Positions 2-9,419 of a stretch of DNA of 64,000 nt are shown one piece after another. This DNA comes from Candidatus Eiseniibacteriota bacterium (GTDB taxonomy: Bacteria; Eisenbacteria; RBG-16-71-46; SZUA-252): NCBI GenBank assembly GCA_963703225.1, contig OY969801.1, forward strand, positions 804,001 to 868,000, written 5' to 3'. The position numbers and the translations under genes were made by a program. Numbering within the stretch: position 1 is the first letter of the stretch; each line of letters starts with the position of its first letter. The notes beneath the pieces are model-generated. The model worked only from the letters and a program-made list of their open reading frames with translations. It was not told the origin of the DNA and ran no database searches.

Positions 2-178
2 GGGCATCCATTTACGGCCCAAGGGCTTCTACGGGGTGCCACGGTCGCCGAGGGGCACGGCCTGAGGGCCCGGGCGGCTGACTATCTCGAGCAATTCCTC
101 CTGGCAAACCCCGACTCGCCGCTCCGGGACAAGGCCGGCGCGGACCTTGATCGGCTGCGGAAAACCCCGATTCCTTGA
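2..178 (+). CDS. hypothetical protein, C-terminal fragment (5' end lies outside window)
   Basis: Open frame from window edge to TGA at 176-178 (..LEQFLLANPDSPLRDKAGADLDRLRKTPIP*); no recognisable domain; GC-rich third positions. Confidence 0.3.
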   Translation, partial: GHPFTAQGLLRGATVAEGHGLRARAADYLEQFLLANPDSPLRDKAGADLDRLRKTPIP

Positions 179-265
179 CGCTCCGTCGCGCCCTATGGTA
201 CCATTGTTGTAAGCGTCTATTCCCATGGAATGAATTGAGTTACACCCCGCCACCTGGAGGCGCCG

Positions 266-6563: not shown

Positions 6564-7736
6564 ATGCCGAAGACGCCCAACAATCCTGAGCCGCCGCGAC
6601 GTCCTGCAGCCGCGGGGCGCCCCGCGCGCGCTGCCGTCGCCGCCGTGCCCGAGATCGACCACGAGCGGATCACCGATCCCGGGCCGTTGGGCAGCGAGGT
6701 CGATCTCGACCGCACCCTCCGCCCGCAGCGGCTCGAGGAGTTCGTGGGGCAGGAATCGCTCCGCGAGCAGCTCCGGATCGCGGTGGAGGCGGCGAGACAG
6801 CGCGGCGAGGCGCTGGACCACCTTCTCTTCCACGGCCCTCCCGGCCTGGGCAAGACCACCCTCGCGTCGATCATCGCGGCCGAGATGGACGTGCCGATCG
6901 TCCAGACCTCGGGGCCAGTTTTGGAACGGGCCGCCGACCTCGCGGGCCTTTTGACCAACCTCGAGTTCCGCTCCGTGCTCTTCATCGACGAGATCCACCG
7001 GATGAATCCGGTCGTCGAGGAGTATCTCTATCCCGCGATCGAGGACTTCTGCCTCGACATCATGATCGACCGGGGTCCCAGCGCGCGGAGCGTCCGGATC
7101 GACATCAAGCGATTCACATTGATCGGCGCCACGACGCGCACCGGCCTCCTGAGCGCGCCGCTCCGCGGCCGCTTTGGGATGAGCGCCCGGCTCGACTACT
7201 ACGCGCCCGAGGAATTGACGCGAATCATCCGCCGCTCGGCGAAAATCCTCGGCGTGCCGATCGACGCGGCCGGCGCCAAGGAGCTGGCCTCCCGCTCGCG
7301 CGGAACGCCGCGGGTGGGAAACCGCCTCCTGCGCCGCGTCCGGGACTACGCCGAGACGCGCGCCGACGGGAAGATCACCGAGGAGGTGGCTCGCGCCGCG
7401 CTCAAGCTTTTGGAAGTGGACGCGCGCGGCCTCGACGACATGGACCGCCGGATGCTCGAGGCAATCGTGGTCAAGTACGGCGGCGGCCCGGTCGGGCTCT
7501 CGACGATCGCCGTCGTGGTGGGAGAGGAGCCGGGAACGCTCGAGGACGTCTACGAGCCCTACCTGATCCAGGAGGGTTTCCTGAAGCGGACGGCGCGGGG
7601 CCGCGAGGCCACCGATCTCGCCTTCACCCACCTCGGCCTCACGCCACCCGACCGCGGCGCCTCCGCCGACCCGGCATTGGCGCGCCCCGAAGTGCCCGAA
7701 GAGGGCCCGGATACGCCTCAAAGCACGCTGTTCTGA
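6564..7736 (+). CDS. ruvB: Holliday junction branch migration helicase RuvB
   Basis: AAA+ Walker [10 protein letters not shown], Walker B LFIDEIH, sensor motifs; ~40-aa Ala/Pro-rich N-terminal extension. Confidence 0.9.
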
Positions 7737-7751
7737 CCCGCAAATATTTCC

Positions 7752-7783
7752 TTGAACCCGTACCATGGTACCGGGTCGATGAT
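7752..7783 (+). promoter_or_regulatory. MerR-type promoter/operator: TTGAAC followed directly by dyad CCGTAC-CATG-GTACCGG in a long (19-20 bp) spacer
   Basis: Perfect 12-bp palindrome GTACCATGGTAC at 7760-7771; half-site CCGTAC and the position immediately after the -35-like hexamer match, as recalled from the literature, the classical mer operator arrangement (TTGACT-CCGTAC..GTACGG); -10 element not clearly identifiable. Confidence 0.45.
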
Positions 7784-7798
7784 TCCAACCAGGTCGAT

Positions 7799-8227
7799 AT
7801 GAGCCAGAGATACCTGAGCAGCGGCGAGCTTGCCCGCGAGTCGGGCGTGAATTTGGAGACCCTCCGCTACTACGAGCGGCGGGATCTTCTGCCCCGGGTT
7901 GCGCGGACGGCAAGCGGACACCGGCGCTACGACCCTGAAGCGGTCTCACTCCTGAGGCTGATCAAGCGAGCCAAGGACCTCGGATTCACTCTCGCCGAGA
8001 TTCGGGGGCTGCTTCGAGGGCTCGAGCGTCCCAAAGCGGTCTGCGATGACGTCTGCCGGGTGATCGAAGCGAAAATCGGCCATTTGGATCAGGAGCTCAC
8101 GCGATTGAGGTCCCAGCGCGTACGGCTTTCGCGGTTACGGGATGACTGTCCGCGGACGCGGCCGTTGCGGGAGTGCCCGGTCGTCGTCGAGCTCAAGGGC
8201 GCCACACCAAGAAGGAGGAAACGATGA
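7799..8227 (+). CDS. MerR family metal-responsive transcriptional regulator (Cys82, Cys117, Cys126 present)
   Basis: 142 aa; N-terminal HTH (LSSGELARESGVNLETLRYYERRDLL), dimerisation helix, cysteines at 82, 86, 117, 126 by direct counting; matches positions of Hg-binding cysteines in Tn501 MerR (established knowledge). Confidence 0.8.
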   Translation: MSQRYLSSGELARESGVNLETLRYYERRDLLPRVARTASGHRRYDPEAVSLLRLIKRAKDLGFTLAEIRGLLRGLERPKAVCDDVCRVIEAKIGHLDQELTRLRSQRVRLSRLRDDCPRTRPLRECPVVVELKGATPRRRKR

Positions 8228-8340
8228 AACGAATCGTGCTGATGCTGCTCACAATCGGGCTCATCGTGGCGAACGACGCAGTGTCGTGGGGGTCGACCGT
8301 GGCGAATGCTTGCCCAGGGAAGTGCCCGTTCTGCCCCTGA
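8224..8340 (+). CDS. small Cys-rich peptide (38 aa), hydrophobic N-terminus plus C-terminal CPGKCPFCP motif; not in supplied ORF track
   Basis: ATG at 8224 overlaps merR stop (ATGA coupling); MKRIVLMLLTIGLIVANDAVSWGSTVANACPGKCPFCP*; G/C-rich third positions; followed by strong hairpin terminator. Confidence 0.45.
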   Translation: MKRIVLMLLTIGLIVANDAVSWGSTVANACPGKCPFCP

Positions 8341-8361: not shown

Positions 8362-8397
8362 GGCCGGCGGCCAGATTTGGTCGCCGGCCCTTTCATT
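8362..8397 (+). terminator. intrinsic terminator-like hairpin after the small peptide gene
   Basis: 8-bp GC stem GGCCGGCG / CGCCGGCC with 12-nt loop, followed by CTTTCATT. Confidence 0.5.
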
Positions 8398-8531: not shown

Positions 8532-9419
8532 ATGCAGGGCCGTATCCCGGTTGCAGTCGCCATCGCCGCGATGCTGTGCATTCCCTTAAGCAGGATTGTG
8601 CCCTCGGCGCTGGCGGAACCGCTCCCGCCGAACCAGCGCGACCGCGAGGACGGAATTCCGACCTCGATGCTGGGGTCCTATGTTCAACGCCACGAGCTCT
8701 TGATCTATCCCTCCTACGAATACGTGACCGATCACAACATGGAGTACAACCCTGCAAACCTGGGCTACGGGCTGCAGGAGGATTTCCGCGGAAAGTTTCG
8801 CTCGTCCTCGGGAGGGATCTTCTTTGCTTACGGGGTTACTCGCAAGATCGCGCTGGAGTTCGAGACGGCGTACGAGAAGGCGTCACTCGAGAAGTCTCCC
8901 AGCGACCCATCGACGACTCCCGGCGAGATCAAGGAATCGGGGCTAGCCGACATCGAAGGACAAGTTCGGATCCGGCTGGCCGAGGAGCGCCGCAAGCGGC
9001 CGGAGATATACACGTTCGTCGAAATCACCGCGCCCACCCAGAGAGACGCGCTCCTTATCGGGAGCCCGGACTGGGATGCGCGCCCGGGCATCGGGTTGAT
9101 TCACGGATACCCCTGGGGCACGATGACGATCTGGTCCACGCTCGAGTACAACCGGGAACAGTCGGCCATCCAGGAACCGGCGCACTTCGATATCGGAGAG
9201 ACGGCCATCGAGTACCTGAGGCGCTTTTCGCGGTCCTGGCTGTTCAGCATGGCGTGGGAAGGCGGCGAAGGGGGTGCGCCAGACGAGTGGGAGCTGCGCA
9301 CCGGGATCCAGGGGCCCCTCGCCCATTGGGCGCACTTGAAGATCATCAACTCGGTGGGAGTCTTCTCGAAGTCTCCCGACTGGACGCTGCAAGCCGGGTT
9401 GATGTTCACCATGAAGTGA
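8532..9419 (+). CDS. secreted hypothetical protein
   Basis: 295 aa; AGGAGG-like RBS; N-terminal signal peptide (AVAIAAMLCIPLSRIVPSALA); no recognised catalytic motif. Confidence 0.55.
   Translation: MQGRIPVAVAIAAMLCIPLSRIVPSALAEPLPPNQRDREDGIPTSMLGSYVQRHELLIYPSYEYVTDHNMEYNPANLGYGLQEDFRGKFRSSSGGIFFAYGVTRKIALEFETAYEKASLEKSPSDPSTTPGEIKESGLADIEGQVRIRLAEERRKRPEIYTFVEITAPTQRDALLIGSPDWDARPGIGLIHGYPWGTMTIWSTLEYNREQSAIQEPAHFDIGETAIEYLRRFSRSWLFSMAWEGGEGGAPDEWELRTGIQGPLAHWAHLKIINSVGVFSKSPDWTLQAGLMFTMK

What the first reader, a model, noticed from the sequence alone, without database searches (positions are those of the whole stretch)
7757..7775. Operator dyad CCGTAC-CATG-GTACCGG resembles the classical mer operator half-sites
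The 12-bp perfect palindrome GTACCATGGTAC sits immediately after a TTGAAC hexamer. As I recall it, the Tn501 mer operator is TCCGTAC-N4-GTACGGA placed directly after the -35 box within an unusually long 19-bp spacer; here the left half-site CCGTAC and its placement are the same. That supports regulation by MerR-type DNA distortion. A related 10-bp palindrome ATGGTACCAT occurs at 195-204 upstream of the EF-G-family gene, which might indicate a second binding site, though this is weak.
Basis: partly seen in the sequence, partly recalled or inferred. Interest (0 to 1): 0.55.

Follow-up and report, generated by a model that had tools for sequence, protein, structure and literature searches.

The report
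MerR-type operator driving cysteine-peptide cassette
The palindrome is very probably the binding site of the neighbouring mercury-sensor-like regulator, placed inside an over-long promoter, and it controls the regulator's own gene plus an overlooked 38-residue, three-cysteine exported peptide that is conserved as a unit in about a dozen uncultured bacteria.

Summary
The sequence is as described: TTGAAC (7752-7757), then CCGTAC-CATG-GTACCGG, with the perfect palindrome GTACCATGGTAC at 7760-7771. As a palindrome it is not unusual (34 twelve-base palindromes in the window, 32.6 expected). Its context makes it significant. It lies 24 bp upstream of a MerR-family gene (7799-8227). Twelve orthologous loci with unrelated neighbours all carry the same layout: -35 box, yCCGTAC-N4-GTACGGr dyad, -10-like hexamer 20 bp after the -35 box, regulator, an overlapping 34-40-aa ORF ending CPGKCP[F/L]CP, and a GC hairpin. 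A weight matrix built only from the other loci scores the window site 21.6 bits (next best 11.3; 0 of 200 shuffles reach it). The central 4 bp are not conserved, so the perfect palindrome is partly accidental. The regulator is closest to Bacillus Hg(II)-MerR and keeps its three Hg-ligand cysteines and 8-residue loop. However, it falls below the curated MerR cut-off, has an extra invariant Cys86, and no mer genes lie nearby. The 195-204 palindrome is unrelated (-3.9 bits) and overlaps an ordinary promoter. It controls an undescribed autoregulated sensor-plus-micropeptide cassette.

The parts
7752..7757 (+). -35 hexamer TTGAAC; its last base is the first base of the dyad, as in Tn501
   Evidence: TTG is conserved in all 13 cassettes. 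TTTCC just upstream is also conserved.
7757..7774 (.). Operator dyad CCCGTAC-CATG-GTACCGG (7-4-7); its core GTACCATGGTAC (7760-7771) is the perfect palindrome
   Evidence: 21.6 bits with a matrix built from the other 12 loci, and 0 of 200 shuffles reach it. Per-column information is 1.3-1.6 bits in the half-sites against 0.4-0.8 in the central N4. It matches the Tn501 element TCCGTAC-N4-GTACGGA.
7778..7783 (+). -10-like hexamer GATGAT, 20 bp after the -35 hexamer
   Evidence: At spacing 20, 13 of 14 orthologous promoters have A2 and T6; at any other spacing 0 or 1 do. The standard 16-18-bp promoter scan finds nothing here.
7791..7793 (+). Conserved AGG, a short Shine-Dalgarno-like element 5 nt before the ATG
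   Evidence: cAGG is conserved at the same distance from the start codon in most cassettes.
7799..8227 (+). MerR-family metal-sensor-like regulator, 142 aa, with Cys82, Cys86, Cys117 and Cys126 invariant in its clade
   Evidence: Pfam MerR_1, MerR and MerR-DNA-bind. NCBIfam best hit MerR at 95 bits, below cut-off. Best solved relative is Bacillus MerR 4UA1, E 5.7e-24. Invariant columns are listed.
8212..8219 (+). Shine-Dalgarno AAGGAGGA of the peptide gene
   Evidence: GGAGG is conserved before the peptide start in the other cassettes.
8224..8340 (+). 38-aa peptide gene (MKRIVLMLLTIGLIVANDAVSWGSTVANACPGKCPFCP); its start overlaps the regulator's stop (ATGA)
   Evidence: Present in every cassette. 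Third codon positions vary in 9 of 9 final codons, first and second positions in 1 of 9 each; 227 synonymous against 38 non-synonymous pairwise differences. The family has 16 representatives among 1.84 billion proteins.
8362..8389 (+). GC-rich hairpin, probable terminator of the two-gene unit
   Evidence: 12 pairs, 10 of them G-C. -33.5 kcal/mol, z = -4.4. Same stem GGCCGGYG/CRCCGGCC in 10 cassettes.

Best explanation
The dyad at 7757-7774 is the operator of the MerR-family regulator encoded 24 bp downstream. It lies in the 20-bp spacer of a sigma-70-type promoter (TTGAAC ... GATGAT), a spacing too long for efficient open-complex formation. By analogy with MerR, ZntR and CueR, a regulator dimer sits on the dyad, holds the promoter off without its ligand, and on binding a thiophilic metal underwinds and shortens the spacer so that the -35 and -10 boxes realign. 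The transcript covers the regulator's own gene and a translationally coupled 38-aa gene, and ends at the hairpin at 8362-8389. The peptide has a signal-peptide-like N-terminus and an invariant C-x3-C-x2-C-P end. It is probably exported and cleaved to a tri-thiol peptide of about 15 residues that binds the inducing metal outside the cytoplasm. SHOWN: the motif, its position, its conservation, the 20-bp spacing, the gene pair, selection on the peptide, and the ligand cysteines. INFERRED: binding, distortion, the transcription start, the inducer (a soft metal about 0.6, Hg(II) specifically about 0.4), and the export and role of the peptide.
For: Thirteen cassettes with non-syntenic neighbours share the -35 box, dyad, -10 hexamer, regulator, peptide gene and hairpin. 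The half-sites are the most conserved intergenic columns, while the centre and upstream flank are not conserved. With the window left out of the matrix, its site scores 21.6 bits and is unique in 64 kb. The 20-bp spacing is supported in 13 of 14 promoters, and is kept in L173 even though the dyad there is shifted by 1 bp. Symmetric compensating changes occur in L091 (CCTGTAC/GTCCAGG) and L175 (CCTGCAC/CTGCAGG); the permutation test of half-site pairing gives p = 0.036. L084 carries a second copy of the same promoter-operator in front of a Thioredoxin_3 CxxC gene. Relatives at 35-47% identity, including one (L008) followed by MerP-like and MerA-like ORFs, have the same TTGAC-CCGTAC-N4-GTACGG layout. 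The element matches the published Tn501 operator and the 19-20-bp rule. The regulator aligns with Hg-MerR 4UA1 so that its Cys82 falls in the same column as a Cys of the Bacillus chain and the loop C-P-x7-E-C-P is shared. Those cysteines are the Hg ligands Cys79, Cys114 and Cys123, and the 8-residue loop is the feature said to favour tri-thiolate Hg(II).
Against: There is no transcription-start or binding data. GATGAT is a weak -10 hexamer, and promoter rules in this probably Eisenbacteria lineage are unknown. The window's right half-site has one mismatch to the consensus. The regulator scores below the curated MerR cut-off, and CadR/PbrR and ZntR models score almost as well, so the inducer is uncertain. 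No merA, merT, merP or HMA signatures occur in the window, and none were called in the orthologous loci. The 13 loci are related by descent, so part of the conservation is inherited. The covariation signal is modest.
Confidence: 0.82

Rival explanations
1. It is a chance palindrome with no function; restriction-site-like words (GTAC, GGTACC, CCATGG) happen to coincide.
For: 12-bp palindromes occur at chance frequency, 34 against 32.6 expected. 35 of 100 shuffles give a match with up to 2 mismatches.
Against: The half-sites are conserved at a fixed distance from the -35 box, the -10 hexamer and the start codon in 12 other loci with different neighbours. The score of 21.6 bits with an independent matrix is reached by 0 of 200 shuffles. 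GTAC and GGTACC are under-represented in the window, not over-represented (133 against 203, and 15 against 22).
Confidence: 0.02
2. The dyad is the regulator's operator, but it works only as a simple autorepressor site by steric block, without MerR-style activation by spacer distortion.
For: The operator overlaps the promoter of the regulator's own gene, a classic autorepression layout. Activation is not shown. The -10 hexamer is weak.
Against: The 20-bp spacing is conserved in 13 of 14 promoters and kept even when the dyad shifts by 1 bp. That is the hallmark of distortion-activated MerR promoters. The same module drives a separate effector gene in L084.
Confidence: 0.1
3. The operator reading is right, but the signal is not a metal. 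Cys82 and Cys86 (i, i+4) form a redox or electrophile-sensing thiol switch, and the cassette responds to thiol or oxidative stress.
For: The invariant extra Cys86 is absent from Hg-MerRs. Some neighbours are redox-related: AhpC-TSA, DoxX, DinB/MST and Thioredoxin_3.
Against: The complete MerR metal loop C-P-x7-E-C-P, with invariant Cys117, Pro118, Arg121, Cys126 and Pro127, is retained. In CadR the i+4 residue, Asn81, is a fourth metal ligand, so Cys86 fits an S4 or S3+1 metal site equally well. The co-transcribed product is a tri-Cys peptide.
Confidence: 0.15
4. The small ORF is a cis-acting, CutF-like exported leader peptide whose metal-dependent ribosome stalling controls a downstream gene, so the promoter's real target is the next gene.
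For: It has a signal-peptide-like N-terminus, a Cys motif and a Pro-rich end, superficially like CutF-like proteins.
Against: No member has the PP motif that defines CutF-like proteins. The ORF is followed by a strong conserved hairpin. The next gene is convergent in most of the 11 loci where the downstream gene could be read, and is unrelated between loci.
Confidence: 0.04
5. The inverted repeat acts at the RNA level, as a terminator or stabiliser hairpin for ruvB.
For: It lies 21 nt after the ruvB stop codon.
Against: The stem would have at most 7 pairs with one mismatch, and no T-run follows. The terminator scan does not report it. In other loci the upstream gene is divergent or unrelated, yet the dyad is kept in register with the -35 and -10 boxes.
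Confidence: 0.02

Closest known systems
Tn501/Tn21 MerR with the PmerT operator-promoter
   Same: The half-sites are the same (TCCGTAC-N4-GTACGGA against CCCGTAC-N4-GTACCGG). The dyad starts on the last base of the -35 hexamer. The spacer is over-long. The regulator has three Cys at positions 82, 117 and 126.
   Different: The spacer is 20 bp, not 19. There is no divergent merR promoter, because the regulator is itself the first gene of the controlled unit. There are no merTPAD genes. There is an extra invariant Cys86.
Gram-positive-type MerR (Bacillus megaterium, PDB 4UA1/4UA2)
   Same: It is the best solved relative (88 bits, E 5.7e-24). The Cys that aligns with the query's Cys82 and the loop C-P-x7-E-C-P-(I/V)(I/V) are shared. 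The 8-residue loop favours tri-thiolate Hg(II). mer spacers are stated to be 19-20 bp.
   Different: The clade is separated from all such MerRs by a gap from 53% down to 47% identity. It is below the NCBIfam cut-off. Arg121 replaces the MerR-specific Lys118. No mercuric reductase or transporter genes are linked.
ZntR with PzntA (E. coli)
   Same: It has a 20-bp spacer, the one exception among the classical metal MerR promoters.
   Different: The operator sequence and ligand set differ. The ZntR models score lower than the MerR model.
CadR (Pseudomonas putida, PDB 6JGV)
   Same: Its site I uses Cys77, Cys112' and Cys119' plus the i+4 residue Asn81. The clade has Cys86 at that i+4 position. The related operator type ACCCTGTAG...CTACAGGGT is seen in L175 and in the Pseudomonas loci.
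   Different: The loop between the two C-terminal cysteines has 6 residues in CadR and 8 here. There is no His-rich site II and no cadA neighbour.
CutF-like exported metal-sensing leader peptides (CutF, CopL, CruR)
   Same: They are small, have a signal peptide and a Cys motif, and occur in metal-linked contexts.
   Different: The peptide here has no PP stalling motif and no conserved same-strand downstream gene, and a terminator follows it. It is therefore not a member.
MerP, the periplasmic Hg(II)-binding protein
   Same: It is an exported, thiol-based metal binder expressed from a MerR-controlled promoter. This is a functional analogy only.
   Different: MerP is a ~72-residue folded HMA domain with GMTCxxC. 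The peptide here would be about 15 residues when mature, has three Cys, and matches no Pfam or NCBIfam family. The family scans were inadvertently run one base out of frame; the in-frame peptide was tested only against the protein collections.

Membership tests
MerR-type (distortion-activated) promoter-operator | A dyad-symmetric operator lying between the -35 and -10 hexamers | tested here: met
   The dyad at 7757-7774 lies between TTGAAC and GATGAT, and the same layout is found in 13 loci plus a second site in L084.
MerR-type (distortion-activated) promoter-operator | [quoted passage not shown] | tested here: met
   The spacer is 20 bp. 13 of 14 promoters have the -10 positions A2 and T6 only at spacing 20, and L088 fits 19. 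The hexamers are assigned by sequence, not from a mapped transcription start.
MerR-type (distortion-activated) promoter-operator | Regulator binding, and ligand-induced underwinding that activates transcription | not testable with these tools
   This needs EMSA or footprinting, reporter assays and spacer-deletion mutants.
mer operator (Hg-MerR type) | The half-sites TCCGTAC-N4-GTACGGA | tested here: met
   The window has CCCGTAC-N4-GTACCGG. The clade consensus is yCCGTAC-N4-GTmCGGr, against the published Tn501 element.
MerR family (Pfam MerR_1 / MerR-DNA-bind) | An N-terminal winged HTH plus a dimerisation helix, scoring above the gathering thresholds | tested here: met
   PF13411 72.7 bits (cut-off 21.6), PF09278 52.9 (25.4), PF00376 51.3 (28.2).
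MerR, Hg(II)-responsive regulator (NCBIfam TIGR02051 equivalog) | A score at or above the curated cut-off of 150.85 bits | tested here: not met
   The score is 95.2 bits. CadR-PbrR scores 88.4 and the Zn(2+)-responsive regulator model NF007069 scores 85.6, all below their cut-offs.
MerR, Hg(II)-responsive regulator | Three Hg-ligand cysteines (Bacillus 79/114/123, Tn501 82/117/126) with an 8-residue loop | tested here: met
   Cys82, Cys117 and Cys126 correspond to these ligands and are invariant in 22 clade members, and the loop is C-P-x7-E-C-P.
MerR, Hg(II)-responsive regulator | Genomic linkage to merA, merT, merP or merC | tested here: not met
   No HMA, MerA-type or CC-transmembrane signatures occur in the 64-kb window. 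No such genes were called within 2-3 kb in 12 orthologous loci.
MerR, Hg(II)-responsive regulator | A transcriptional response to Hg(II) | not testable with these tools
   This needs reporter or binding assays.
CutF-like exported regulatory peptides | Under 150 aa with an N-terminal signal peptide | tested here: met
   The peptides are 34-40 aa, with MKR, a hydrophobic core of about 13 residues and a small-bulky-small site such as S-W-A/G. The signal peptide is judged by rule, not by a predictor.
CutF-like exported regulatory peptides | A PP motif within the last 15 residues | tested here: not met
   None of the 12 peptides has PP.
CutF-like exported regulatory peptides | A same-strand downstream gene controlled in cis | tested here: not met
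   The downstream gene is convergent in most loci and never conserved, and a strong hairpin follows the ORF.

The most novel reading that the evidence does not exclude
The cassette may be an undescribed minimal metal-defence module. It would consist of a MerR-lineage sensor with a four-cysteine (Cys82/Cys86/Cys117'/Cys126') site, possibly tuned to a ligand other than Hg(II), such as Cd, Pb or even As(III) given the ars-like genes beside three cassettes. That sensor would switch on itself and a Sec-exported tri-thiol peptide of about 15 residues, which sequesters the metal in the periplasm or outside the cell. This would be a genetically encoded, unmodified 'mini-MerP/metallothionein', invisible to gene callers.
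Probability: 0.3. Interest if true: 0.65.

Novelty: new variant of a known kind. Interest (0 to 1): 0.45.

Why it matters
The operator itself is a textbook-type MerR site, so on its own it is ordinary. Its target is what adds value. The same promoter-operator, regulator, 38-aa three-cysteine peptide gene and terminator travel together as a unit of about 650 bp through otherwise unrelated neighbourhoods of uncultured bacteria. The peptide is largely unannotated: only 3 called proteins were found by the word-indexed search of the 5.8-billion-cluster collection, it was missed by gene callers in two of the loci examined, and no paper contains its motif. If the peptide is a metal-binding effector, this would be one of the smallest self-contained metal-response systems known, and a compact sensor-plus-output part for biosensors. 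The case also shows how an operator motif can flag a hidden small gene.

Tried and rejected
- Palindrome statistics: the palindrome alone is at chance level.
- Second site at 195-204: rejected. It scores -3.9 bits and overlaps an ordinary promoter, TTGACG-18-TACCAT.
- Other operator copies in the window: none; the next best score is 11.3 bits, within the null range.
- Standard promoter scan: it finds nothing at 7752-7783 because it allows only 16-18-bp spacers.
- Classical mer genes in the window: none found by signature scan.
- GTDB species-representative and JGI metagenome scans with exact peptide words from the window: these returned mostly relatives at 47% identity or less and only one clear orthologue, L091. 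The orthologues came from the protein search.
- First family scans of the peptide: run one base out of frame by my error. They were not repeated in frame, so the absence of a family match rests on the protein-collection searches.
- Names or taxonomy for orthologues: none available. The Eisenbacteria assignment rests only on names of RuvB homologues.
- Rfam: nothing in the window.
- CutF-like leader-peptide model: rejected.
- Mobility: no clade member on plasmids (best 44.8% identity) and no peptide motif on viral contigs.
- The 295-aa ORF at 8532..9419 against an ORF in the mer-like operon of L003: no similarity, E = 0.23.
- A 1473-aa hit to the peptide profile (P0249): an unrelated repetitive Cys-rich protein.
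- Structure prediction: not run. The metal site is formed across the dimer, so a monomer model would not show it.

Full report
OBSERVATION. The window reads ...tttccTTGAAC CCGTACCATGGTACCGGGTC GATGAT tccaaccAGGtcgat ATG. TTGAAC is at 7752-7757, the perfect palindrome GTACCATGGTAC at 7760-7771, and the 18-nt dyad CCCGTAC-CATG-GTACCGG at 7757-7774. ATGGTACCAT is at 195-204.

Palindromy alone carries no weight. The 65.7% G+C window has 34 perfect 12-bp palindromes against 32.6 +/- 5.1 in shuffles, and 118 ten-base palindromes against 116. The exact word with up to 2 mismatches is matched in 35 of 100 shuffles.

CONTEXT. ruvB ends at 7736. A 142-aa ORF starts at 7799 and matches the Pfam families MerR_1, MerR and MerR-DNA-bind. 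Its best NCBIfam model is the Hg(II) regulator MerR, but at 95 bits against a cut-off of 150.85. The CadR/PbrR model (88 bits) and a Zn(2+)-responsive regulator model (86 bits) score close behind.

Its stop codon overlaps (ATGA) the start of a 38-aa ORF at 8224-8340. That ORF is preceded by AAGGAGGA and followed by a 12-pair hairpin at 8362-8389. The standard promoter scan finds nothing at the dyad because it allows only 16-18-bp spacers.

COMPARATIVE EVIDENCE. In the protein collection the regulator has a distinct orthologue clade of about 45 clusters at 53-85% identity. Below that there is a gap to 47% or less, where generic MerR-like proteins begin.

Contexts were fetched for 12 different orthologues. 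Their neighbours are unrelated from locus to locus. Every locus nevertheless has the same unit:
- a -35 box, TTGmmy
- the dyad yCCGTAC-N4-GTmCGGr
- a -10-like hexamer
- a leader of about 15 nt with a conserved AGG
- the regulator gene
- an overlapping or abutting 34-40-aa ORF ending CPGKCP[F/L]CP
- a GC hairpin

Gene callers had missed the small ORF in two loci.

Column information is 1.3-1.6 bits in the half-sites and the TTG, 0.4-0.8 bits in the central four bases, and about 0.1-0.5 bits further upstream. A symmetrised matrix made from the other 12 sites scores the window site at 21.6 bits. The runner-up in 64 kb scores 11.3, and 0 of 200 shuffles reach 21.6.

The central tetranucleotide varies (CATG, CGCG, GGCG, CGTA, TGAG, CCAG, CACG). 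The perfect 12-bp palindrome is therefore partly an accident of a palindromic centre. The functional element is the 7-4-7 dyad, and the window's right half (GTACCGG) has one deviation from GTACGGr.

Two loci carry changes mirrored in both halves: L091 (CCTGTAC/GTCCAGG) and L175 (CCTGCAC/CTGCAGG). A permutation test of half-site pairing across loci gives p = 0.036, which is modest support for recognition by a symmetric dimer.

SPACING. When hexamers at every spacing from 15 to 22 bp are scored across 14 promoters, 13 have the key -10 positions A2 and T6 at spacing 20. At any other spacing 0 or 1 do, and L088 fits 19. In L173 the dyad is shifted by 1 bp, yet the total spacer stays at 20.

SECOND SITE IN L084. 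L084 has a second copy of the whole promoter-operator (TTGAAC CCGTACCCAGGTACAGGGTG CATCCT, 20.1 bits). It lies in front of a Thioredoxin_3 CxxC gene next to the cassette. The module is therefore reused to drive another thiol protein.

LITERATURE ANCHORS. The Tn501/Tn21 symmetric element is TCCGTACxxxxGTACGGA at -32 to -15 in a 19-bp spacer (PMC11049809). The -35 box is TTGACT and the -10 box is TAAGGT, and metal MerR promoters have 19-bp spacers except ZntR at 20 bp (PMC3431237). mer spacers are also described as 19-20 bp (PMC4551924). The window differs by one extra base between the dyad and the -10 box.

More distant relatives (35-47% identity) from many phyla show the same TTGAC-CCGTAC-N4-GTACGG-...-TATnnT layout. 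Several head mer-like operons with MerT/MerC-like, MerP-like and, in L008, MerA-like ORFs. Pseudomonas CadR-like loci have the related ACCCTGTAG-type site in divergent orientation.

THE REGULATOR. The best solved relative is Hg(II)-MerR of Bacillus megaterium (4UA1/4UA2, 88 bits, E 5.7e-24). It is followed by CadR and PbrR (61 bits), Tn501 MerR (57) and CueR (54).

The printed alignment places the query's Cys82 in the same column as a Cys of the Bacillus chain and shows the loop C-P-x7-E-C-P-(V/I)(V/I) as shared. Those Bacillus cysteines are the Hg ligands Cys79, Cys114' and Cys123'. The 8-residue loop is the feature said to favour tri-thiolate Hg(II) over the 7-residue loop of CueR.

Across 22 clade members Cys82, Cys86, Cys117, Pro118, Arg121, Leu123, Cys126 and Pro127 are invariant. 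Cys86 is extra. It sits four residues after the first ligand, the position where CadR uses Asn81 as a fourth Cd(II) ligand (PMC6789929). I infer an S3 or S4 thiolate site for a soft metal. Hg(II) is the single most likely inducer but is not established.

No merA, merT, merP or HMA signatures occur in the window or in the fetched flanks.

THE PEPTIDE. An exhaustive profile search finds only 16 representatives among 1.84 billion proteins. All genuine members are 36-39 aa, apart from one 70-aa gene call that carries an N-terminal extension. The word-indexed search found only three called proteins. The motif occurs in none of about 160 loci of distant MerR relatives, and no paper in the library contains CPGKCP.

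In the final nine codons, third positions vary in 9 of 9 columns, while first and second positions each vary in 1 of 9. Pairwise codon differences are 227 synonymous against 38 non-synonymous (that pairwise count covers eight of the nine codons because of a slicing slip). This is a protein under purifying selection.

By rule it looks like a Sec signal peptide. MKR is followed by a hydrophobic core of about 13 residues, too short for a stable membrane span, and then a small-bulky-small site (S/T-W-A/G). Cleavage there would leave a peptide of about 15 residues, STVANACPGKCPFCP. This is inference; no predictor was available.

It is not CutF-like. It has no PP motif, no conserved same-strand downstream gene, and a terminator follows it. 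The hairpin is very stable (-33.5 kcal/mol, z = -4.4). Its stem is conserved mostly in sequence, with double changes at only 3 of 10 pairs.

THE 195-204 PALINDROME. It scores -3.9 bits with the operator matrix. It overlaps the -10 region of an ordinary promoter-like site, TTGACG-18-TACCAT with an extended -10 TG. It is unrelated to the operator.

SOURCE. A 689-kb contig (L176) is 98.7% identical to the window and has an identical operator region. Small indels there made a gene caller fuse RuvB and the regulator into one product. Named RuvB homologues at 75-87% identity are mostly 'Candidatus Eisenbacteria'. No clade member occurs on plasmids and no peptide motif occurs on viral contigs.

VERDICT. 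This is a MerR/Hg-type operator in a 20-bp-spacer promoter. It is a new variant rather than a new kind. The promoter is autoregulatory and its only conserved cargo is an overlooked tri-cysteine micropeptide. Binding, distortion, the inducer and the peptide's role remain to be shown.

Noticed in passing
window 8224-8340: An unannotated 38-aa ORF belongs to a small conserved family. Members have a signal-peptide-like N-terminus and an invariant C-x2,3-C-x2-C-P at the extreme C-terminus, and are always coupled to this regulator clade. Gene callers missed it in L172 and L173.
   Followed up: yes
L084 2611-2648 and 2668-2928: A second copy of the same promoter-operator (TTGAAC / 20 bp / CATCCT, 20.1 bits) drives a Thioredoxin_3 CxxC protein. 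The same protein type follows MerR in the mer-like operons of L001, L007 and L010.
   Followed up: partly
L084 3582-5963; L086 3592-5032; L174 1-1637: ars-like genes lie directly beside the cassette in three of twelve loci. They include an LMWPc arsenate-reductase-type gene, a MIP channel, an ArsR-type HTH_5/HTH_20 regulator and a methyltransferase. This hints at a metal(loid)-resistance neighbourhood.
   Followed up: no
L176 1-1504 (equivalent to window 6725-8227): In a 98.7%-identical contig, RuvB and the MerR-like protein were called as one 527-aa fusion protein. The operator region is identical, so the fusion is an indel or annotation artefact. It also hid the regulator from the protein search.
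   Followed up: yes
L018 2563-2796, L019 3429-3569, L021 3444-3614, L022 1811-1954: A different small peptide family follows MerR-like genes in Desulfobacterota and Myxococcota MAGs. It has one transmembrane helix and a tail ending in GGCCG or GGCWG. A YHS/TRASH-like membrane protein comes next. The arrangement is analogous to the window's cassette, not homologous.
   Followed up: no
window 175-204: An ordinary sigma-70-like promoter, TTGACG-18-TACCAT with an extended -10 TG, lies upstream of the EF-G-family gene. The 10-bp palindrome ATGGTACCAT is part of its -10 region.
   Followed up: yes
window 7747-7751 and 171-174; the same position in L081-L175: A T/C-rich TTTCC or TTCC motif directly 5' of the -35 TTG is conserved in the cassettes and also precedes the EF-G-gene promoter. 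It may be a lineage-typical extended -35 or UP-like element.
   Followed up: no
window 8362-8389 and orthologous hairpins: The stem sequence GGCCGGYG/CRCCGGCC of the 3' hairpin is conserved across loci far more than base-pairing alone requires (mostly invariant pairs, few compensatory changes). Most copies lack a T-run.
   Followed up: partly
window 8532-9419: A 295-aa ORF with an N-terminal signal-like sequence has no Pfam or NCBIfam match. It lies between the cassette's hairpin and queA. It is not conserved next to other cassettes and is not similar to the L003 operon ORF (E = 0.23).
   Followed up: partly
contig of L081 (503 kb): A second MerR paralogue (P0119, 45% identical to the window's regulator) is on the same 503-kb contig as the cassette orthologue P0004. 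These genomes therefore probably carry a separate conventional MerR-type sensor as well.
   Followed up: no
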